Shown here: positions 19,708 to 63,600 of the stretch, one piece after another
How the letters are laid out: the number at the start of each line of letters is the position of its first letter
Numbering within the stretch: position 1 is the stretch's first letter
Source: Eremomyces bilateralis CBS 781.70
Lineage: Eukaryota
Assembly (NCBI GenBank): GCA_010015585.1
Contig: ML975161.1
Length of the DNA: 64,000 nt
Reading direction: 5' to 3' (one strand)
The notes under the pieces: model-generated
What the model saw: only the letters and a program-made list of their open reading frames with translations
The model's database searches: none
Told to the model about the DNA's origin: nothing
Program-made: the position numbers and the translations under genes

Positions 19708-20915
19708 CTTGGCGCGTTTGGAAGGGTATAGTACGGCTTTATAGAAGGTAAGCTATCAAGGATGACGAATGAAAGGCTCCGGGATTTTCAATGGGAGCTC
19801 GTATAATAATTGCTTTAGTATGATCTCAAACTCCGATCTGTTCTGGGGCTGCAGTTCCTGATATAAATGCACAGTTTCCAGTGATCAGCATGCCATTCTC
19901 TGCACATCTCAGCCTCCGCCCCCCTTTTTAATCGCCCGAAATCTTATGCATTCTTACCAATTCGACGCGACGGCGAGTCCGCTCGCGGTGGATCGCAGGA
20001 GATACATGAACTCCATGAAGTTAAGTCCGGTCGATCGGGTGTTCAAGTGCTCGAGTAGCCACAATTATCGGGAGACAGTCAATCCCGCTGCTAGTGGCCG
20101 ATGCTAACTCGAACCTTGTGAAGATGGGAAATTCGGCATCGCGTATTCGTAAGTATCGACATATGAACTCTGAGGAAAGAGAAATGTCTTAAGGACGATG
20201 GTTGTAATTCTTGCCGGGCTGCATCGTGATACGGTGTAGAGGTAGGGATTGAACGATATTCCGTAGCGTGGTTAGTGTACACATTCCTAATTGTCAGCGA
20301 GGTTAAGTAATCACTAATCAGCAAATGACACGGTCTGGATGTGGAAGATCTGCGTCCTGACTCCTGAGATTACCAAGTTCCATTAACCTAAACTAAAGAG
20401 AGAGAGAAGGAAGAAATCTCCTGGCGCCTTCGTGCGCGAGAGAGCGACTCTCCCCTCTGCCACCCTATGATAATGCTGTGTCACCATGTTTGCTTTTCTG
20501 ATAATCCACATGCAATCCACCAGCCACATCTCTGTGGCAATCAGCTGCAACCCAGCTGCCCCCATGCCCATGACAGCAAGTTCTAATTAAGGCCTTGATT
20601 TTCATTATACTTGTTTAAGAAGAATAACCTCAGAAAGCATTATGAGAAGAAACGAATTAACGAAGTTACTTTCATACATATATCTTAGGTGCTTACTACA
20701 ATTCATACGACGTCAGCGGCGTTGGTGGGAGACATACAGCATGGCGTAGGAGGGCAAAATTCGGGAATCTTTATTGACATTGGAATTTGCACCATTTTCA
20801 ATCCTTTGTTACTATTAGAAATTAGAAGTGAACCTCTTGAATTGCCTAATAAGCGCAATATGTTAGAATCTTAGGATATCCCAACTTCATCCCCTATCAC
20901 GACCTGCTTGATTCT

Positions 20916-21609: not shown

Positions 21610-22820
21610 CGTGACGGAAAGTAAAACGACGTGTTGTTTTGCTACAATCAAAATATTCTTGGATGACTTGACAGTGGATGTATGAAACCAAAAACTTTCA
21701 GAAGCGGAAACTTTAAGAAATGAGGAGCCCGGAATTATATATTAATTGTCTGGACATGCCGCCCTCCCAGGTATGCCCAGCGAACTCTCGAATTCTTTGC
21801 TGACAGCGAAGTAAACGGCTCAGCTTTGACGACTTTCGATCTCGTATTGTTTATTTCCCTCCGGTACTGGCGGGTCAATGATATTGGATTCTCGATGTAA
21901 CCTCTGCTCGGTAACGTCATCGAGTTACGATCATCCCTAGCAGTTCAGCTGCTCTGGTGGGCGGGCCGTGGAACGTCCATCCCGACATCGATCCGGTTGG
22001 CCTAAACAAATCTATGGAGAGCAGGCTGCTATCGAAATATTCGATTAAAGACCAATAGGAATAGAGCATGTTTTAATACACCTGGATGGTGCGCGGGACT
22101 AAGCAGACAAATAGATGTCACTTGCAACGGTTGAAACACGGAGATATTAGACCGAGACTTGGCGTTTGGTGGAGAACCATTTCTAAGTTTAGCTATGCGA
22201 TATTAGTGTCGATCCATTCCCCAACCACTGTCTCTGGAGCTCGAGAATGGAGCACCGTATGGTGGTGCAAATCATGAATTCGTATTCAATCTATTTACAA
22301 TAGTCGCACCATCGAAAACAATGCTGGGATTGTGGTTTGTTGCTATACACCGTTGTATGACGGCAACCTCCTCATTTCGTGCCACCTGCGTAGGTTTGCG
22401 GTAGCATTCGAATGACCCTGATCCGATGACCTGCATGCGGAGTTCGTGATTTTGATGTATCCAAATCGTCCCTTCGGGCATCCCACCATCGGTCGGGCGA
22501 AACTTTGGTATGAACCACTGCCGGAAACTCCGAAGTTGTCTCAAAGTCTCGAAGGGGTAGTCTTCCCACACACATGGTTAAACCGTAAAGCCAATAGAAA
22601 TCGACTTGCCCTCATCATAGTGAGTGTACAGTTGTTCCCCATCCATTTGCCACCGAAGTTGCTCGCTGTTTACTCCCATTTCCAAAGTCTCTCGGCCTCA
22701 AAGCAAGGAGCGGTGCTCCCGGTAGCCCGCTCGCTAATGCAACGACTAGTAATCAATACGCCGTGTCTCGTATTCCAAAATGAGAACTGTGCCAATACCC
22801 AAGTCGCTCACCTAACGACA

Positions 22821-23954
22821 TCATCGGTTTGCAAACCCGCCTCGTCCTCGGCCTCGTCCGAATCGTATATTTCGTGGAACAAATTTCAAGGAAGACATGG
22901 ACGTCGTGAGATCGGTCATGGCATCGTCTTTCACGTCATTATTATTGCCTTGATCAAAATCGTAGTCCTCGTTCATTTCATCCCCGTCAGCCTCGACCAC
23001 GTCGGTGTCGGACTCATCGTTGTCCACCGCGCCCTTCTGGTTATCGCCCTGAGATTTCCGTGGAGATTTCGCGTTTGAAACAGATTGACCAGGGAGAATT
23101 GCGCGTTTGCCTTCGTTCTTGGCTGCGACGACTCGTTGGGAACCCGAGGGTGAGGTTTTAGCTTGCTGTTCGCCCAACTTGCGTCGCGTTACCCATTCCG
23201 GCTGGAGCATAGAATGTCGTCGATCAATACCATCGTTGACGATGAAGAAGTCATAGTTCTAGGCCAGAGGTTAGAGAAATTCTCAGCGCAGAACCGCATA
23301 AACGCCTTGCTTACCCTTGGGTATTGATGCTTATCAATGCAATGCAACCTTCTCTTCCACCATGTCTCAACGACCTTGTCGCATCCCTCTACGAAACATT
23401 GATACTGCTCGACATATTAGCCTGTAACCATCACCCGGACAATCCTAGCCACCCACAATTGACTCCCCTCTCTCCTTCCGCGCCTGATTAATCGGGTTAT
23501 GATTCTCCGCAATATGTAACTCCAAATACCTATCGCTAGGAAGGTTCTTCATGCACTCCGCACACCGATGCCTGTGTGCCTGGGTGTAATGTAACTCATA
23601 CTCCTCGTACGTCTGGAAGGTGAGCGGTCGGTGTGGTGGCAGGAAACACTTCATTGCATGCTGTCGATTGGGAGCGGGCGACTCGGATCGCGATCGTGTG
23701 AGCTGGGAATATTTCGCGGTGTGCGAGTCGGAGAGCTGGGATAGGGCTGGGGAGACAGCTCGGAGCTCGATACGCGCGGATGCAGATCTCGGGGAGGAGG
23801 GCGGTGTAAGCGATCGGAATCTCTTGCGGCTCGAGGTTTGCGATGTCGGCATAGGCGCCGGAGTACCGTTCGGTCGGTTCTGATCTACCTTTGGCCCTCC
23901 CTTTACCATGCAGATTAACTGTTCAGGCTCGTCCTCGCGTCTAGGCGCGTGCAT
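22821..23954 (-). CDS. C2H2 zinc-finger protein (ZNF511-like); introns 23405-23456 and 23259-23314; start uncertain
   Basis: C..PPH..F..YE.HY..AH, CAEC..LELHIAENH, YQCFVEGC..LHCIDKH.YP.NYDF, and terminal SSLKFVPRNIRFGRG. Confidence 0.85.
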
Positions 23955-24277
23955 ATCGTCAAAACTTGGGAATATCGATTCGTGATGAGCAGGGAAGTCG
24001 GCTTAGTCAGCAGCCCACTTTCAACATCACTTCATCGATTCCCTTGAATGTTCACCGAAATACATCTGAGCTTGGAGTGAAATGTGTTGTGATTTCGTCT
24101 AGGAGCTAGTTGATTGAAGCTCGACCAGACTAGAAAATAAATACAGAGAGTAAATACCACTACCACTCGGCCTTACATGATGTCAGTGTCCCCCAAGTCC
24201 CTTTGAGCGGTTGTTTGACGGCCGGCTCAATCTGACTACTTCCCAGTCAACACCTTTCTTCAACACCTTTCCTCGTA

Positions 24278-24462
24278 CAAGACTGAGCTCTAAAGCTGCC
24301 CATCAAGCTGCCCAAACACTTCCGAACGCCACCCCATGATCCGATTGGCCGTTACAAGACTAAGCTCTGAATCTTCTCGTCAGGCTGTTCAAACCACTTT
24401 CGAACGCCACCTCATAGTTAGATTGAACTTGGCCCGAGACTAAGCTCTGAGACTGAGCTCTG
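24278..24462. repeat. Degenerate direct repeats upstream of the Poc4-like gene
   Basis: AGACTRAGCTCT x4; CACTTYCGAACGCCACC x2. Confidence 0.75.
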
Positions 24463-24526
24463 GAATCACAAGTGAGACTGCTCCAACAAAGATCCAGATC
24501 CTGGCAACTGACGAATGACTTGAGAT

Positions 24527-25789
24527 ATGGCTCTCACCGCGCCAAAGATCTCATCTTCATCACCCATCCAATTCTCCATCCCGCTTCCGCACGCTCCCCA
24601 GACCCGCATCCATGTCCACCTCACCATCCTCCAAACCTCTGTCATGGCCTTCCTCACCACGACCGGAGAATCCACGACACGAGCCCTCTCCTCCATGGGT
24701 TCGTTCGTGTACTCATTGCCGAATGTAAGCAAGTTAGTTTCCGTTTCTGTCAATGTTCATGAGATGCCAGAGCAGACTTACCGCTGGGTGGGTCTAGCCG
24801 ACGCTTGGCCCCCTTCGTGATGGCCAGGCGCCAGCCAGAAGCTGTCCCGAATCCAACCTTCTGTCCCTTCGCTGCCATAGCAGCCCAACCCAATGCTCCT
24901 CCGTTTTCCCATCCCACTACCCGTAGCAGTCCGACCTGGTGCTCCTCCTTTTTCCCACGCCCCCTTCTTTTGGAGGCTTCTTCACCCCTTCATTCCCTCA
25001 CCTGCCCTACCACGCCTCTTCTATTTGGAGGCTTCTCCCCTTTTCAATTCCTCCTCTGCCCGACCCCGCCCCTTCTTTGGAGGCATTTCTTCCTTTCTTT
25101 TTCTTTTTTTTTTGTTTTTGTTTTTGTTTTAGTTCTAAAGAGCGATGGTTAGCATGGCCAAGCAATTGAGGAGCAAGGACTACCTACTATGGTTTTGGTC
25201 TCAACAAAGCCTGCCACGTATGTGGCGCGGTTGAGACCGGACTGTCGGGCCACTGATGCCAAGGAGTTTGCAAAGTTGATATGAAGTTTCTGAGGCCTGT
25301 GTGCTCGACAATCTGCTATGGTTTTTGACGAGAGCAATGAATGAGGACAGCTGCTTTTGGCAGCTCTATTTTGCGGGTTTCCCGCATCATTGAGATGTTT
25401 GAAATGATTGATGCCTATGTCCGGTTGACAGTCGACGCTCGGATGGAGTGAATGTGTCGGAACTTACTACTTTTGATAAAATGATCCAACTATTTTTGGT
25501 TTGAAGTTCAACAGCAAGAAGAACGTGTCGCTGACGATTTGATTGAAAACAGCGCGACCATCCGACCGAACAACCGATTAGCACACCCCTTTACATCGAT
25601 GCCGGCACGGTTGACTTCGCATCCCGTCTCGCAAAAGCTTTGGCGCGGAGAGTTGGAAAGCCAGTGTATGTTGGTAGCTCAGTAAGCTTCTCGTCGGCAG
25701 GACGAGGCGGCGACGTGGAAGAAGAAATGGAGGGCTTCCGGGCGGCGGTGGATGCAATTGCCCGCGTGGTCACTACGCGAGAAGAATGA
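24527..25789 (+). CDS. Proteasome assembly chaperone PAC4/Poc4-like protein (144 aa); exons 24527-24724 and 25553-25789, 828-nt intron
   Basis: Exon 1 FSIPLP..IHVHLT..MGSFVYSLPN|GTAAGC; exon 2 after CTGAC..CAG reads ISTPLY..FASRLAKALARRVGKPVYVGSS..EEEMEGF; phase-0 join is in frame; exon 2 is absent from the ORF track. Confidence 0.82.
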
Positions 25790-25817
25790 ATTGCTTGAAA
25801 TGATGGTGGACCTGGAA

Positions 25818-26362
25818 GGATCCGAAGTTGAAAACTTGATGAAGAGACGAATGAAACGCTCCTCATGTGTCTGATCAACCGAATCGAAACGATATATTGT
25901 TCGTTTGTGAGTGTTGCTCGCTCGTATGGAGACGACTCGGGAAGCTGAATAGCTTGATGATCCGACTTGAAGACCCGATGAGTGGTCACATAAAATGCTC
26001 ACCCTGTGTCTGATCGCTTGATGACATAGTTTAGTTGACTGTGTCGTGGACGTGGAAATTGCTCGTATGGTCACGACATGCGGAGCAGAATTGAAGATTT
26101 GCTTAAGAATTTTATCGATCTAGAAGAATCCGAACTTGAAGATTTGATGAGTGGTCACACAACTCATTATATGTCTGATTGCCCGAGACGTGGTTTATTT
26201 ATCGTCGATGTGGCGATCGGTTGCTAGGCGACGAATTGTCGGGGCACGACTGAAGATTTGATTAGTGGTCACAAAACATCTCATCCTCTGTCTGATCACC
26301 CGAAACCGTGGATTGCCTGTCTATCGGTGTGGCGATTGCTCGCATGATCACAGCTGCGAAGC
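25818..26362. repeat. Four degenerate tandem units of ~110-165 bp
   Basis: Core TGAAGA..GATGAGTGGTCACA..CTCA..TGTCTGAT recurs at ~25830, 25969, 26136 and 26251. Confidence 0.85.
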
Positions 26363-26599
26363 GTTTTGTGTTTGAAATATGGCGGATCCCGAAGGATCCG
26401 AATTCAAAGGTTCGAAGAGTGGAGGCTGTTCTTCGCGTTATGTGAGCCTTGGCGGATTTGCATCGGGGTGGACGCGCGGAAAAAAGGCACTGTACGAGGC
26501 CGCGAATCTGAAGATAAGACGCTGTCCCTGATCCCACACGGCCTGTTTCACGAAGTTTCGGGGTTCCGTAACGACATCATCGTGTTGGTCCTCTGCGTA

Positions 26600-30931: not shown

Positions 30932-32680
30932 ATGCGATATATTCGAGTACCGCGTTCCCTCCTCCCTCGGCCCCATTATCCATACTCGAACCCCAGTTAT
31001 ATCCCCTATCCCCGACCACTTCCACCCTCAACTCCCTTCCTCAGCCGAGCCATCACCATGTCGAACTTCTCTGCCGCAACCGCGGACCCCTCCTCTAAAC
31101 TCCCGCTCATCAACTTCCTCCGCGGCTGGCCCCACCCGAGCCTTCTCCCACCGTCCCTCCTGCAGGCCTCTGCTTCAACCCTCCTCGCCAACCCCACCCG
31201 CTCGACCACCGCTCTCTGCTACGGACCCGATGAAGGGGACGTCGAAGTACGTCACGAGGTCGCCAAGTGGTTAACGGACTTCTACGGCGGCGTATATCAA
31301 CCTGACCATCCTCCAGCGACAGGTGGCTCTGCAGCTACAGCGGAACCACCTGTCGATGTGAGCAGCTCAATTCCCCCCAACCCCGACGCGAGCATCCCAT
31401 CCGACAGGATCCTCATCACTGGCGGCGCCTCCCAATCCCTCGCGAACATCCTCGCCGCATTCACCGACCCAACTATAACCCTCCGCATCTGGATCGTCGC
31501 CCCCGCCTACATGCTCGCGTTCCGCATCTTCGAAGACGCTGGCTTCGTCGGCCGCCTGCGCGCCGTCCCGGAAGGTAACGAAGGCATCGACATCGACTTC
31601 CTCGAGCACGAAATCCAAGCCGTCGAGGACGACGAGCGCCTCCGACGCGAGGAATCCACCTCGGGCGATAGCCAACTGCGTGAACAAGACAGACGACCCG
31701 GCCCGAGGAAACCCGGCCGCACGCACTACTACCGCCACCTCATCTACAGCGTTCCCACCTTCTCCAACCCCTCTTCCCGCACCATGTCCCTCCCCCGGCG
31801 CGAATCCCTCATCCGCCTCGCCCGACGCTATGACGCCCTCCTCGTCAGCGACGACGTCTACGATATGCTCTACTGGCCCGTTCTCCCACCCAACACTTCC
31901 CACCATTCCCCCACCATACCCGCCCGCGCCGTCCTCCCCCGCCTCACCGATATAGACCGCTTTCTCCCGCGCGCCTCGCCGCCCACGCACCCGTTCGGGC
32001 ACGCGCTATCGAACGGGTCGTTTTCAAAGCTGCTGGGGCCGGGGTTGCGGACGGGGTGGGTGGAGGGGGCGAGCGCGGCGGTGACGGCGTTAGGGCGGGT
32101 CGGGGCGACACGGTCGGGGGGCGCGCCGTCGCATTTTACGGCGTGTGTGGTTGGGGAGGGTTTGAAGAGTGGGGAGACGGAGAGGCAGGTGAGGAGGTTA
32201 AGGAGGGAGTATGCGAGGCGGTGGAGGAGGTTGAGGGATGCGGTGGAGGGGGTGATGGGAGTGGAAGTTGTGGAGTCGACGGTTGAACCGATTGGTGGTG
32301 GGAGGAAGGGGGATGTAGGAGGTGAGAGTCGTACGGATGGAGAGTATATCGATCGTGTTGCGGGTGGGTATTTCCTCTGCCTGACTCTCCCTGCTCCACT
32401 CATTGCGACCGAGGTGGTTGACCGCTGCAAGAGAGTCAACTTGATCGTCGCGCCGGGGGATATCTTTGAGGTGCCGGGTGACAACAACACTGAGAAGACA
32501 CGGTTCCGAAGCCTGATCCGGCTTTGCTTTGCGTGGGAGGATGAAGACAAATTGGAGGAAGGGGTGGAGAGGTTGGCGGGCGTGATTAAAGTCATGCTGG
32601 AAGAGAGGAAGACCGGCGGCTCCCACCGAGTCGGAGATGGTTCTCAAAAGGGCGACGGAGAGTTGGGGAATTTCTGGTGA
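30932..32680 (+). CDS. PLP-dependent class I/II aminotransferase (Yer152c-like); alternative start 31058
   Basis: INFLRGWP, YGPDEG, ITGGASQ, PTFSNPS, SDDVYD, SNGSFSKLLGPGLRTGW (PLP lysine), IRLCFAW. Confidence 0.93.
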   Translation: MRYIRVPRSLLPRPHYPYSNPSYIPYPRPLPPSTPFLSRAITMSNFSAATADPSSKLPLINFLRGWPHPSLLPPSLLQASASTLLANPTRSTTALCYGPDEGDVEVRHEVAKWLTDFYGGVYQPDHPPATGGSAATAEPPVDVSSSIPPNPDASIPSDRILITGGASQSLANILAAFTDPTITLRIWIVAPAYMLAFRIFEDAGFVGRLRAVPEGNEGIDIDFLEHEIQAVEDDERLRREESTSGDSQLREQDRRPGPRKPGRTHYYRHLIYSVPTFSNPSSRTMSLPRRESLIRLARRYDALLVSDDVYDMLYWPVLPPNTSHHSPTIPARAVLPRLTDIDRFLPRASPPTHPFGHALSNGSFSKLLGPGLRTGWVEGASAAVTALGRVGATRSGGAPSHFTACVVGEGLKSGETERQVRRLRREYARRWRRLRDAVEGVMGVEVVESTVEPIGGGRKGDVGGESRTDGEYIDRVAGGYFLCLTLPAPLIATEVVDRCKRVNLIVAPGDIFEVPGDNNTEKTRFRSLIRLCFAWEDEDKLEEGVERLAGVIKVMLEERKTGGSHRVGDGSQKGDGELGNFW

Positions 32681-42634: not shown

Positions 42635-42846
42635 TGTGTGCCCCTCAACTTGGCGCGCTCACAACCGCATCCATCCCGCATCTTCGTCAATGATATCTGG
42701 AACCACGGCTCCAATGCGACTGCTTCCCTGTGTACAGCTCGCATGTTGTATGCGCGGGGAGCAGATAAGTAGCCTGCTCTCCCAGCAATCGAACGATGTC
42801 GTCTTCAGCTGTCATACCTTCCTCGAGGACGGGATATCGATACACC

Positions 42847-44667: not shown

Positions 44668-45382
44668 CCCGACTAAGCCGCCCTTGCCCTTATTATGGCA
44701 ATGACGCTATCCCAACTTCCGTATTCCGTATATTAATTAAATGCGGCTCCAATCCCACGAGGCTGCGCCACGATTCTTTCTCATAATGTCGTCTTTTCCA
44801 ACATTTTTCTCCTCCGAGCACGTCAGCCTCCCCAGTCCGCTTGTCGCTAGTCGCTTGTTAGCCGTACTTTTTAGTAGTCCGCGAAACTCCTCCGAACGGC
44901 TCTAGTTCATCCATATGGGATGATCTTCGATTCGGAGCCCGTGGACAACGAATCCTCATCTGTGCAACGGATCCGATCCTTGCCCCGCTGGCGGCCGAGT
45001 GGAGTGGATGGCTGTGCTGACGGGCGCAATCTTATTATCTTAACCAAGAAAATCTCTGAGTCTTCTGGTTCTCGATCGTAAAGATCCTGTTTGAAGAATC
45101 ATGAAATAATGAATATTTTGAGTCTTTGATTTCTTTACAAACTTTATGGTATACTCTGCATGCCAAAGGGTCCAGTGACGTAGACGGTTCACTGCCATAT
45201 AGTACCCATACCAAGGAACTGTTCGGGTTGTGGTGCTACTAGCCGCATCACACTACCTGGACACCTATAGCCTACAGGACTTCTTTGTTCAAATTCAACC
45301 TCTGAGACATCGATATCACCTCCACCCTTCATTAAATCGTATCGATTCCACCCATTCAGATCCGTTCCCGAACGGGAACACG

Positions 45383-60610: not shown

Positions 60611-63600
60611 GGCGAAACGTCGGGTGGTTAAATGAAAAGCGGATTTTTGGAGTACGGGACGTAGTTAGATTTGCGTGTTACGCACTCAACGGTATTGTCC
60701 CTCTTTGTTTAATTTCATGTTGTACATCTCTTGCCGCTGTTTCGCATTCAAGCATCTACGATGTCATGCAGTGAGGTTGGAAGCCGACATCACGTGACCT
60801 CCAGTTTCCTTACCATATCACTCGTGGATTTCAAATCTCCATAATATGTCGCACAAGTATAGGAGGTGGCATTGAACAAGATTGCCGTGTCAATATCCTG
60901 TCCTTCGTGATACTATTTATCCATTCTTTAGTGATGCGGAACACCAAGCCCGATCTGCTTGCGAAGAGGATTCATCCGACGTCCAAACCAAAACGGTGGT
61001 AGAACTCATAGGATCCTCATGAGACAACCATTCGGCATTTTTGGATGTTAGAAGTAAATGCAGTGTCATATCTACCTCGATCAGCCTCGACCTAGTCTGA
61101 AATTGCGGCTTGGAATCGATAATTCGATACGCTATATCTCCCAACTCCTTATCATTCATCCAAATCTGGACAAAGTTTGGCTTTCCCCTATTGGAGGGTG
61201 CTTGTGGTTTGTGTCGATCACTTCTGATCCGAGCAAGATTTCTTGGGTATGTGGATCATCCCTCAATTCAGAAGTCTGAACTTGGGTTCTCAAGGTTTGC
61301 GGACACTGACGACGACTGTCTTTCAGTGTCTTGATGTTCGGACTTTTGACAGCGTTGATCGCTCCACGGCCCACACGTAAATTTCCTTGCTACTACCATA
61401 CCATAAAACTCATCTCACATTACACATATATAGTATCGGGCGAATGATGTGGCAATCCTTCCGAAATACGTGCCAAATTTCGCACGTTTGATGTGTAGAC
61501 GAATGTCGTACAATTAAGTATCTCCCCTATGCAGTCACGCAGGTTTGTATGTCGCTTGGATGCAGGAACGAAGCATTGGGACAGGTTACGAATCGACCGC
61601 GTCTTCGGGTCTAATTACCGAAGCATGGACCGAGCATCTGACTATCGCAACTGATCGCCATGTGGTGATGAAGACGGTTCAAGCTGGCGAATGCTGCTGT
61701 GAGATAATAGTAGACGTTGAAAGAGGTTGCAAGACCCTCGCGGCCCGTTCACGGAGACAAAGGAAATGCAATTACGCCGCGGTGGTACAAAAGATCTGTA
61801 CACGACCGTTTGCCTTCATTGTGCTCCTGTCATTACCGCATATGCCATGCTATGCATATGCAGCATGGCGGTTCAATCTCCTCCTTGCTTGTACGACAGT
61901 AGCACGTTGCTGATATGAAGGAAATGATATGATGTGGAGCGGCAGAGGGCATCAGTCCGTCAATCTGCTGCGATATGAAACCGCATGAAAGCAAACCGCC
62001 ATCAATCAAGGAGATTTGTGTCAAACTTGACCCTCAGCTGCGTTCTTCCAATGATCAACCCTCTGGAATCTAGCCATCTTTCTCGACAACTCCAGCCGAG
62101 GGACTTGCAATAATGATCAAGGGCCAAAAAAGCTAGTGGGCTAAGTTCACATTTAGTCAGGGTGTGCTGATCAGCTTGATGCTCCTATTAGTTAGTAGTG
62201 TTATTTTAGCAGGAATAATAGATGTCCAATCCATGAATGATAGCAGTAAGCAAGGGGCCTGGTCAACTAAAGAAGGGGACTTTTCCACCATACTCATTGG
62301 TAGTTCACAGCCCAAATGTCTGGCTGCAGATATCAGCCCCGATCCTTCAGACTGACAACGTGTTGTCAAAGATAAGCAGCCTTCCAAAGTCTCCGTAAAC
62401 CAGTTTTCGGGGTAATATCCGTTCAGCGCAGATAACGTAATACCCGTCCCAGGCAGGTTCTCGACTCTCATAAGTCGTATGAGAAAGTAAGCAGCCGGTA
62501 GTCAACCGGGTTTCCATAGGCTCAAACAGTCAAAGACCAGAGAAACGGCGAGCACTGCGTCCGATGGGCCACAATGCACCAAGCCACCACCAACGTCTTA
62601 CGCCAATACGCCGCACGCGCTAAGAAGCACGTCCATCTTTAGAGCCTCCGGTGCCGCCGCCGAGCGACGGGCAGCTCACAGCCCGTTGAGTGCCCTGTCC
62701 GCGATCTCCCTTGTCTAAACAAGGCTAGCCAGAAGCGGGATGTTTCGAAGCCAATTGGGCAGTCCAACCAGGATATTGTTCAACCTTCCCGAAATCCGAA
62801 TGCTTTGGAGCCTGGAGGAATGGGGAGGACATGCTGGGAGTCGGGACACTGCCACTCTGGGAAGACAAAGATCCAAAGCGAGATTCCCTGGCACAGTCTG
62901 TGTCGATAGGGGATTCCAGGCGCTTGGGTCGGTTCTAGGAAAAGTTAGAAATTCCCATAATTAAATCACACGCATTTCCGTATGTACTCAGCCATTATTA
63001 TGTAAGGTCTGTAAGCAGTTATCCTAAATCAACAGACATCATCCCACGAGCGACGAGACCGGCACAGGGTCGGTCGAAGCGAGAGATCTGTCATTCGGAT
63101 AAAGGAAAGATTGGCGGGGTGCATGCTCCATACTTGCTCCATAGGGCTACTTGAATCTTTGGCTCAGCCTTTCATTGTTTGATATCGGTGAGAAAGGCTC
63201 GAACGATGATGACCGCGTCCTTTCGACTTTCGTGATTAATCAAGGTTGCTCTCGAGGTCGAACGGACGGTTTGTACGGAGAATCGGAGAGTTTGTATTGA
63301 CAACACTTTAGTCATAAACCAAATCGGCTTGGACTGCTGAAATCACTCCCTCTCCCGACAGCATTCACTGTTGCGGCTTCATTCATCCCTTCCATGTTGA
63401 ATTTTAATTTCCTGTTGTTTCCTTCAAATCCCAACTGTTCGCACGTTTGGACTTCGCTTTAATGACCGACACCCGCCTGCGCTATCTACATTCAAATCGA
63501 ATATATCACCGTGTTGAAGGTCTGATAGCATCGTACATAGTACGGGTTCCTCAGTGATAGATCCAAACCCAGCTTACCGCACGTCTCACTGTCCATTCAA

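What the first reader, a model, noticed from the sequence alone, without database searches (positions are those of the whole stretch)
24725..25552. 828-nt hairpin-rich intron in the Poc4-like proteasome chaperone gene: candidate intronic ncRNA or splicing switch
Seen: the other introns identified here are about 45-150 nt, while this one is 828 nt. Its 3' half (25150-25450) is full of stems: GGTCTCAAC/GTTGAGACC (25197-25238) enclosing GCCAC-GTAT-GTGGC and extendable by G-U pairs; an outer GCAT.GGCC/GGCC..ATGC pairing; TGCTC..GAGCA; CAATGA/TCATTG closing two hairpins (AGCTGC/GCAGCT and TGCGGG/CCCGCA) as a three-way junction; GTCCG/CGGAT. Inference: an unannotated structured RNA or cis-regulatory element hosted by a proteasome-assembly gene. 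I cannot match it to a known snoRNA, snRNA, TPP riboswitch or ribozyme consensus.
Basis: partly seen in the sequence, partly recalled or inferred. Interest (0 to 1): 0.8.

Follow-up and report, generated by a model that had tools for sequence, protein, structure and literature searches.

The report
Candidate H/ACA snoRNA in PAC4 intron
A fungal proteasome-assembly gene has an unusually long, properly spliced intron; its last 160 bases look like an undescribed small RNA guide for ribosomal RNA pseudouridines (about even odds), and about a third of the intron is local sequence duplication.

Summary
The 828-nt GT-AG intron (24725-25552) of a PAC4/Poc4 gene is real and spliced. The same intron is 47-96 nt in 41 of 42 measurable fungal orthologues, with no sequence similarity, so it is lineage-specific; about 260 nt are tandem duplication and a U-run. 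Refolded, 25355-25516 reads as a box H/ACA snoRNA: hairpin, H box (25402), hairpin, ACA (25511). Both pockets pair 13 bases with rRNA at 14-16 nt spacing: an 18S site at or beside human Psi918, and the 25S site pseudouridylated in S. pombe (Psi2839). This architecture arose in 9 of 30,000 shuffles (thresholds set after seeing it) and nowhere else in 510 kb. Against: weak or short upper stems, long hinge, unusual tail, no Rfam hit, no homologue, no small-RNA data. About 50% snoRNA, 33% ordinary expanded intron. Telomerase RNA, C/D snoRNA and transposon are unsupported.

The parts
24113..24181 (+). first leader exon of the PAC4 transcript (start approximate)
   Evidence: contig joint 24181 to 24247; start inferred from record offset 70
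24182..24246 (+). leader intron 1, 65 nt
   Evidence: GT..AG joint; sequence
24276..24450 (+). 77-nt degenerate tandem repeat in leader exon 2
   Evidence: TRF score 186; self-BLAST E 9e-14
24472..24524 (+). leader intron 2, 53 nt
   Evidence: GT..AG joint
24527..24724 (+). PAC4 coding exon 1, 66 codons
   Evidence: Pfam PAC4 1-34; P0001
24725..25552 (+). 828-nt phase-0 U2-type intron; donor GTAAGC, branch CTGAC with A at 25534, acceptor CAG
   Evidence: joint; same position in orthologues; signals
24875..25104 (+). degenerate tandem array, 46-nt x2 and 54-nt x about 2.5-3, 72-81% identity
25085..25132 (+). U-rich run / (TTTGTT)n microsatellite ending in AG, without an upstream branch motif
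25194..25242 (+). strongest hairpin of the intron; GTATGT donor-like word at 25218 in its apex
   Evidence: z -4.97; pairing 0.86-0.99
25243..25310 (+). second hairpin; can be redrawn as a C/D-type kink-turn (6-bp stem 25246-51/25294-99, UGAUG 25254, CUGA 25290)
   Evidence: z -2.56; motif in 2-63 of 2000 shuffles by setting; found by eye first
25218..25275 (+). 58-nt nested intron-like pattern (GTATGT, CTGAT, AAG); not seen spliced
   Evidence: 163 of 2000 shuffles hold one; contig 24798-25582 has no gap
25359..25399 (+). candidate H/ACA 5' hairpin; upper stem 25372-25386; pocket strands 25364-25370 and 25387-25392 pair 7+6 with 18S AAUGA-U-U-AAUAG
   Evidence: fold z -2.45; pairing
25402..25407 (+). 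candidate H box AAAUGA, 15 nt after the start of the 3' pocket strand
25408..25459 (+). 52-nt hinge with weak, variable folding
   Evidence: z +0.39
25460..25509 (+). candidate H/ACA 3' hairpin; 6-bp lower stem 25460-65/25504-09; pocket strands 25468-73 and 25497-503 pair 6+7 with the 25S site of S. pombe Psi2839; upper stem weak
25511..25516 (+). candidate ACA box and 3-nt tail (GCA); 14 nt after the pocket start, ending 18 nt before the branch A
25553..25789 (+). PAC4 coding exon 2, 78 codons and stop
25754..26422 (+). degenerate 115-165-nt repeat, about 4 copies, from the last codons into the 3' region
   Evidence: self-BLAST E 4e-22; alignment, 62% mean identity

Best explanation
The ancestral short PAC4 intron grew in this lineage (shown: about 260 nt by tandem duplication and a U-run; origin of the rest unknown) and carries near its 3' end a box H/ACA guide snoRNA of about 160 nt (25355-25516; inferred). 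By the standard H/ACA mechanism (established knowledge), Cbf5-Nop10-Nhp2-Gar1 would bind the H and ACA boxes on the pre-mRNA, the spliced and debranched intron would be trimmed back to the protected RNA, and each pocket would hold one rRNA uridine for isomerisation: the ACA pocket the 25S U equal to S. pombe Psi2839 (S. cerevisiae 2744), the H pocket the first or second U of 18S AUGAUUAA (the second is human Psi918). PAC4 would be a recently acquired host; a decaying copy of such a snoRNA counts under this reading. Shown: splicing, short orthologues, complementarity and spacing. Inferred: existence of the RNA, processing, modification.
For: Hairpin-H-hairpin-ACA order; when the RNA starts at 25355 the lower stems have probability 0.81-0.96 and 0.76. 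Pocket 1: 11 Watson-Crick + 2 GU pairs with fetched fungal 18S, 15 nt from the H box; the register shifted by one base scores the same at 16 nt and falls on human Psi918. Pocket 2: 12 WC + 1 GU, 14 nt from ACA, without invading the lower stem, on a site mapped as 95.7% Psi in S. pombe. Rule 9-13 bp, 14-16 nt from Liu 2009. Nulls: pocket >=12 + lower stem + ACA in 1 of 2000 shuffled introns and 5 of 2000 shuffled 3' halves; both pockets >=12 against the fetched rRNA alone in 9 of 30,000 shuffles (41 at >=11, 162 at >=10), and the only case at >=11 in 510,370 bases of window and loci (11 at >=10); chance that one ACA box fits one of 55 S. pombe sites at >=12.5 is 0.001-0.003 by shuffles and about 0.004 in real window DNA, from 5 of 71,001 box-site pairs. 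Length fits N. crassa H/ACA RNAs, mostly over 160 nt.
Against: Thresholds were set after seeing the candidate, several RNA classes were tried first, and the Psi2839 site was recalled and then checked. Upper stem of hairpin 2 has no predicted stability alone (0.0 kcal/mol; hairpin z -0.05). Upper stem of hairpin 1 spans 15 nt, against 25 or more in all 17 N. crassa pockets (read by eye). In longer contexts the first lower stem drops to 0.02-0.08 and the second to 0.02-0.34; pocket 1 fails my lower-stem filter and its full 13 bp invade that stem. Hinge is 52 nt. G follows ACA, seen in none of the 20 N. crassa RNAs (one unclear, by eye). The 3' end is 18 nt from the branch A. Only 2 of 20 N. crassa H/ACA RNAs are intronic and none guides these sites. 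The 18S site is unmodified in S. pombe, the 25S site in human. Pocket 2 fits a second 25S uridine (about S. cerevisiae 930) equally well (score 13), and an unstructured stretch at 63469 scores 15, so pocket scores alone mislead. No Rfam hit; no match in 47 related loci. Four bases of the 25S target are inferred and the organism's own rRNA was not available.
Confidence: 0.5

Rival explanations
1. Ordinary, lineage-specific long intron in a locus prone to tandem duplication; hairpins and pockets are chance. It is spliced through its canonical signals and degraded.
For: Orthologues 47-96 nt in 41 of 42. Three unrelated repeat families in leader, intron and 3' region of this one gene; 19 of 22 window tiles of 2.8 kb and 40 of 42 orthologous loci have no such repeat. 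Overall folding ordinary. No Rfam, Pfam or credible protein match. Computed H/ACA candidates are often false: 3 of 131 snoGPS candidates overlapped the N. crassa cDNA library.
Against: Does not explain two correctly spaced 13-bp pockets (9 of 30,000 shuffles), one on an experimentally mapped Psi. No duplication source was found for 25133-25552.
Confidence: 0.33
2. Regulated unproductive splicing: the U-run and AG at 25132 and the GTATGT donor at 25218 define an 85-nt poison exon (stop at its second codon), or a 58-nt nested intron (25218-25275), gated by the hairpins.
For: Donor-like word at the apex of the strongest hairpin; nested pattern has the length and branch spacing of orthologous introns, with an AAG acceptor as in 2 of 35 of them; retention stops the frame after 97 codons.
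Against: No such joint in X1; the contig 24798-25582 has no gap (contigs drop rare forms). No branch motif within 120 nt of the AG at 25132; 163 of 2000 shuffles hold a nested pattern; 36% of the intron's 9-mers are as closed as this donor. About 0.94 internal donors are expected. Not conserved.
Confidence: 0.07
3. An orphan structured RNA or protein-binding element at 25194-25310 (strong hairpin followed by a C/D-type kink-turn for Snu13 or another L7Ae-family protein), unrelated to H/ACA function.
For: 150-nt window 25185-25334 z -3.39; the only short-range UGAUG/CUGA kink-turn pattern in the window on both strands, 2-63 of 2000 shuffles.
Against: Pattern designed after seeing it; C box deviates at two positions; 31 nt between boxes is too short for a C/D guide; no rRNA duplex beyond chance (longest 11, shuffle mode 12); the predicted fold prefers another register; the minus strand scores as well.
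Confidence: 0.05
4. Remnant of a mobile element (or a telomerase RNA) inserted in the intron.
For: Lineage-specific length; the U-run reads as an A-rich tail on the minus strand.
Against: No terminal inverted repeats, no target duplication found, no RIP-type bias, no second copy in the window, no Pfam hit; the two phmmer hits are summed weak repeats. No CCCTAA on either strand and no NUNGN P6.1 loop. Copy number in the genome could not be tested.
Confidence: 0.05

Closest known systems
Box H/ACA guide snoRNAs of Neurospora crassa (Nc ACA1-20; Liu et al. 2009, PMC2780460: abstract, sections 3 part 1, 4 part 1 and 9, supplements 2 and 5 read)
   Same: Hairpin-H-hairpin-ACA order, 13-bp bipartite pockets 14-16 nt from the boxes, about 160 nt, intronic like Nc ACA1 and ACA9.
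   Different: Neither target is among their 17; upper stems shorter or weaker; 52-nt hinge; G after ACA; no sequence likeness noticed by eye.
S. pombe 25S Psi2839 (Taoka et al. 2015, PMC4605285: passages and supplement 2 parts 1-3 read) and human 18S Psi918 (Taoka et al. 2018, PMC6182160: passages of text and supplement)
   Same: The two pockets fit these sites (the 18S one in one of two equal registers).
   Different: These are modification sites, not guides. Psi2839 is listed there without earlier supporting evidence; the passages I read in Canzler et al. 2018 (PMC5824354; supplements unreadable) name no guide for it.
Pezizomycotina telomerase RNA three-way junction P5/P6/P6.1 (Qi et al., PMC3592445: passages read)
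   Different: No NUNGN 5-nt loop on a 4-bp stem, no TTAGGG template, junction not favoured, far shorter than about 2 kb.
Nested spliceosomal introns / stwintrons (search listing only)
   Same: A complete donor-branch-acceptor pattern lies inside the intron.
   Different: It interrupts no splice signal, is not seen spliced, and occurs in 8% of shuffles.

Membership tests
Box H/ACA snoRNA | H box ANANNA after the first hairpin | tested here: met
   AAAUGA 25402-07, two bases after the stem
Box H/ACA snoRNA | ACA right after the second hairpin | tested here: met
   25511-13, one base after a 6-bp stem; the following G is atypical
Box H/ACA snoRNA | 9-13-bp bipartite pairing around a U, 14-16 nt from the box | tested here: met
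   7+6 at 15 nt and 6+7 at 14 nt; tested on other fungi's rRNA, four target bases inferred
Box H/ACA snoRNA | two stable hairpins with upper and lower stems | tested here: inconclusive
   favoured only if the RNA starts near 25355; second upper stem 0.0 kcal/mol
Box H/ACA snoRNA | conserved homologues with compensatory changes | tested here: inconclusive
   none in 47 PAC4 loci or Rfam; no close relative or whole fungal genome available
Box H/ACA snoRNA | discrete stable RNA ending 3 nt after ACA, bound by Cbf5; target uridines modified | not testable with these tools
   only contigs of one run
Box C/D snoRNA | RUGAUGA and CUGA enclosing a 10-21-nt rRNA guide | tested here: not met
   no exact C box; longest duplex 11 nt, none at a D box conserved across the rRNAs held (partial rRNA)
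Fungal telomerase RNA | template complementary to TTAGGG | tested here: not met
   no CCCTAA in the intron on either strand; this species' telomere repeat not verified
Fungal telomerase RNA | P6.1: 4-bp stem, NUNGN loop | tested here: not met
   loops UUUUG and UUU/GUUUC against the consensus
Conserved intronic cis-element | long, similar intron in orthologues | tested here: not met
   41 of 42 are 47-96 nt, no blastn hit below E 1.6, no nhmmer hit; nearest proteins 60% identical or less
Nested intron / poison exon | internal splice joints in RNA | tested here: inconclusive
   none in contigs of X1, which drop rare forms
MITE / retroposed element | terminal repeats, target duplication, many copies | tested here: inconclusive
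   no inverted ends or duplication; genome copy number untestable
Any Rfam 15 family | score at gathering threshold | tested here: not met

The most novel reading that the evidence does not exclude
One RNA unit of about 320 nt (25194-25516) was recently captured by a proteasome-chaperone intron: an undescribed double-guide H/ACA snoRNA (for the S. pombe Psi2839 and human Psi918 sites) preceded by a kink-turn hairpin and a hairpin that displays a 5' splice site, so that snoRNP assembly next to the branch point and splice-site choice compete and tie ribosome modification to PAC4 output. (The H/ACA part alone as a functional double guide: about 0.35.)
Probability: 0.07. Interest if true: 0.7.

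Novelty: new member of a known kind. Interest (0 to 1): 0.38.

Why it matters
If the snoRNA is real it is a family absent from Rfam and from the N. crassa list, it offers a guide for a nearly complete S. pombe pseudouridine for which I saw no guide named in the texts I read, it predicts two modification sites in a Dothideomycete, and it documents a recent change of host gene. Its pocket words give a direct query for homologues in fungal genomes, S. pombe included. If it is not real, the intron is ordinary and the remaining curiosity is the three independent tandem duplications around one small gene.

Tried and rejected
Whole genome: none held; copy number, telomere repeat and own rRNA untested. 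Sequencing runs: no holder on record as RNA; one run, X1, guessed RNA. In X1 no contig covers 24725-24797 and one covers 24798-25582 at depth 10.3 against 195.8 for the spliced contig; contigs cannot show ends or levels, so this is used neither way. Rfam at E <= 10: 6, 3 and 3 weak matches, none credible. tRNA/tmRNA: 0. Pfam on 15 frames in and after the intron: one match at E 0.016 on the low-complexity run. phmmer of the 104-aa antisense frame: 2 hits, both sums of 4-5 weak stretches in repetitive proteins. Phage collection blastn: none. Sm site: no RAU4-6G match. Long-range pairing between the 5' repeats and the two CTATGGTTTT words: context-dependent, inverted tile scores not significant. 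Synteny with neighbours: no tblastn hit in the loci. Pocket-1 pattern: 0 of 60 loci; 116 matches in viral contigs, not examined, taken as chance. Missing rRNA parts (18S 1-566, 25S beyond model 2329) could not be fetched, so guide tests cover only part of the rRNA. Literature searches for a ncRNA in this intron and for Psi918 guides listed nothing relevant; the library lacks most subscription papers. Supplements of PMC5824354 could not be read and may list this family or these targets; file 1 of PMC4605285 was not searched. Published snoRNA sequences were compared by eye only, not aligned.

Full report
Gene and intron. Exons 24527-24724 and 25553-25786 match consecutive parts of Pfam PAC4, and exon 2 is identical to a 144-residue protein that NCBI lists under Eremomyces bilateralis (Dothideomycetes, Eremomycetales). 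A contig of run X1 joins 24724 to 25553 and so skips exactly 828 nt, GT..AG; the same run shows two leader introns (65 and 53 nt) and two introns of the upstream minus-strand gene (56 and 52 nt), and no other joint inside the long intron. Branch motif CTGAC lies 18 nt before the end, at the upper edge of the 9-18 nt seen in 33 of 35 distinct orthologous introns. The observation of a long intron is right.

Conservation. In 42 the intron could be measured: 40 lie at the identical phase-0 position and two identical loci (L039, L040) had uncertain borders; lengths are 47-96 nt in 41 (median 59) and 362 in one; 36 are distinct. Five were dropped for lack of an exon-1 anchor; three of these span only 426-489 bases and so are short too. 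Neither blastn (best E 1.6) nor nhmmer finds the intron's sequence in the loci. The nearest proteins are at most 60% identical, so an element confined to the family would be invisible. A class-wide conserved RNA at this position is excluded.

Folding. The intron and its 3' half fold like their shuffles (z -0.78, -1.14) and hold an ordinary number of strong local stems. One hairpin, 25194-25242, is notable (z -4.97; second of 36 in the window; 7 of 300 shuffles).

Where the length comes from. 24875-25104 is a degenerate array of 46- and 54-nt units followed by a U-run to 25132, together about 260 of 828 nt. Unrelated arrays lie in the leader (77 nt) and from the last codons into the 3' region (115-165 nt, E 4e-22). 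Of 22 tiles of the window only the two over this gene and one other hold such repeats, and 2 of 42 orthologous loci do. The locus is a duplication hot spot; no source was found for 25133-25552.

Classes tested and dropped. Telomerase RNA: no template word and no NUNGN loop. C/D snoRNA: no exact C box, duplexes with fungal rRNA (loci, labelled) no longer than in shuffles. Mobile element or hidden gene. Splicing switch: a donor-like word sits in the apex of the best hairpin and starts a 58-nt intron-like pattern, and the U-run ends in AG, but each is near chance and none is seen used. A C/D-type kink-turn can be drawn at 25246-25299; it was found by eye and is unexplained.

The H/ACA reading. 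A pocket screen against the fetched rRNA gave one hit in the intron: strands 25364-70 and 25387-92 around the stem TGCGGG/CCCGCA pair 7+6 with 18S AAUGA-U-U-AAUAG, 15 nt before an H box at 25402. A register shifted by one base scores the same at 16 nt and points at the second U, which is Psi918 in human; S. pombe modifies neither. Downstream a 6-bp stem 25460-65/25504-09 is followed after one base by ACA. Its internal loop starts 14 nt before ACA with UGGUUUG, the exact complement of CAAACCA, which precedes S. pombe 25S Psi2839 (95.7%; S. cerevisiae position 2744), and its 5' strand UACUUU pairs with the AAAGUG after the next base (these bases rest and on inference). I recalled this site first, under a wrong number, and then checked it. 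The same pocket also fits a 25S uridine near S. cerevisiae 930, not listed as modified in S. pombe, at the cost of opening the lower stem.

How unusual. First pocket alone: 21 of 1000 shuffled introns, and about ten equal or better hits in the window's 128 kb. With second stem and ACA: 1 of 2000 introns, 5 of 2000 3' halves. With both pockets at 12 or more, using only fetched rRNA: 9 of 30,000 shuffled 3' halves; 41 at 11, 162 at 10; in 510,370 bases of real fungal DNA it is the only case at 11 or more, one of 11 at 10 or more. A fit of one ACA box to any of 55 S. pombe sites at 12.5: 0.001-0.004. These thresholds follow the observation, and a pocket score of 15 in unstructured DNA at 63469 shows that complementarity alone is weak.

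What speaks against. The H/ACA fold is favoured only once the RNA starts near 25355; the second upper stem has no stability alone; the first spans 15 nt against 25 or more in N. crassa; the hinge is 52 nt; G follows ACA, unlike the N. crassa set; the end lies 18 nt from the branch A; intronic H/ACA genes are a minority in N. crassa, where 3 of 131 computed candidates were confirmed by cloning. No homologue was found, and the passages read in the fungal snoRNA survey name neither target (supplements unreadable). Weighing a low prior, a strong double-pocket signal and a mediocre scaffold gives about even odds; this is my judgement, not a computed value.

Mechanism. If real: co-transcriptional H/ACA assembly, splicing at the proven sites, debranching and trimming to 25355-25516, then guided isomerisation of the two uridines (established for the class; inferred here). 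The host link to proteasome assembly need not be functional, since intronic snoRNAs change hosts and this position is empty in all relatives sampled.

Verdict. Observation partly confirmed; interpretation partly supported in altered form. Most likely a new member of a known class (0.5), otherwise an ordinary expanded intron (0.33). Interest 0.38. Look-ups in the scan's own notes by place, sequence and words showed no earlier record of this element.

Noticed in passing
window 24276-24450, 24875-25104, 25754-26422: Three unrelated degenerate tandem arrays sit in the leader, intron and 3' region of one 144-codon gene, while 19 of 22 tiles of the window have none. Cause unexplained.
   Followed up: partly
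window 24113-24526: The spliced leader (about 296 nt, two introns) holds two upstream ORFs of 14 and 35 codons, at 24177 and 24336.
   Followed up: partly
window 25836-26295: Units of the 3' array carry TGATGA-like and CTGA words 25-30 nt apart; no rRNA guide beyond chance.
   Followed up: partly
window 25424-25438 with 25525-25538: Local folding pairs the branch-site region and leaves the branch A unpaired (about 0.8 with a 200-nt span limit, much weaker otherwise).
   Followed up: partly
window 24774-24795 and 24802-24830: Two well-defined hairpins near the 5' end of the intron (0.98-0.99); the first holds a GTGGGT donor-like word.
   Followed up: no
window 25178-25196 and 25307-25325: A 19-nt word (84% alike) recurs at 129 nt; both copies contain UGGUUU like pocket 2, and the first lies 14 nt before an ACA at 25204, but no matching 5' strand was found.
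   Followed up: partly
window 31311-31363, 42715-42772, 20193-20263, 45214-45267 (+): Hairpins as strong as the intron's (z -5.55 to -4.85).
   Followed up: no
window 22323-23922 (-): Spliced gene head to head with PAC4, weak zinc-finger-like Pfam matches below cut-off.
   Followed up: no
L044 2651-3012: One orthologue has a 362-nt intron at the same position, unlike the window's and without the pockets.
   Followed up: partly
L048-L060: Thirteen prokaryotic genome records contain a fungal rDNA primer site; the four scanned are eukaryotic rDNA, presumably contamination.
   Followed up: partly
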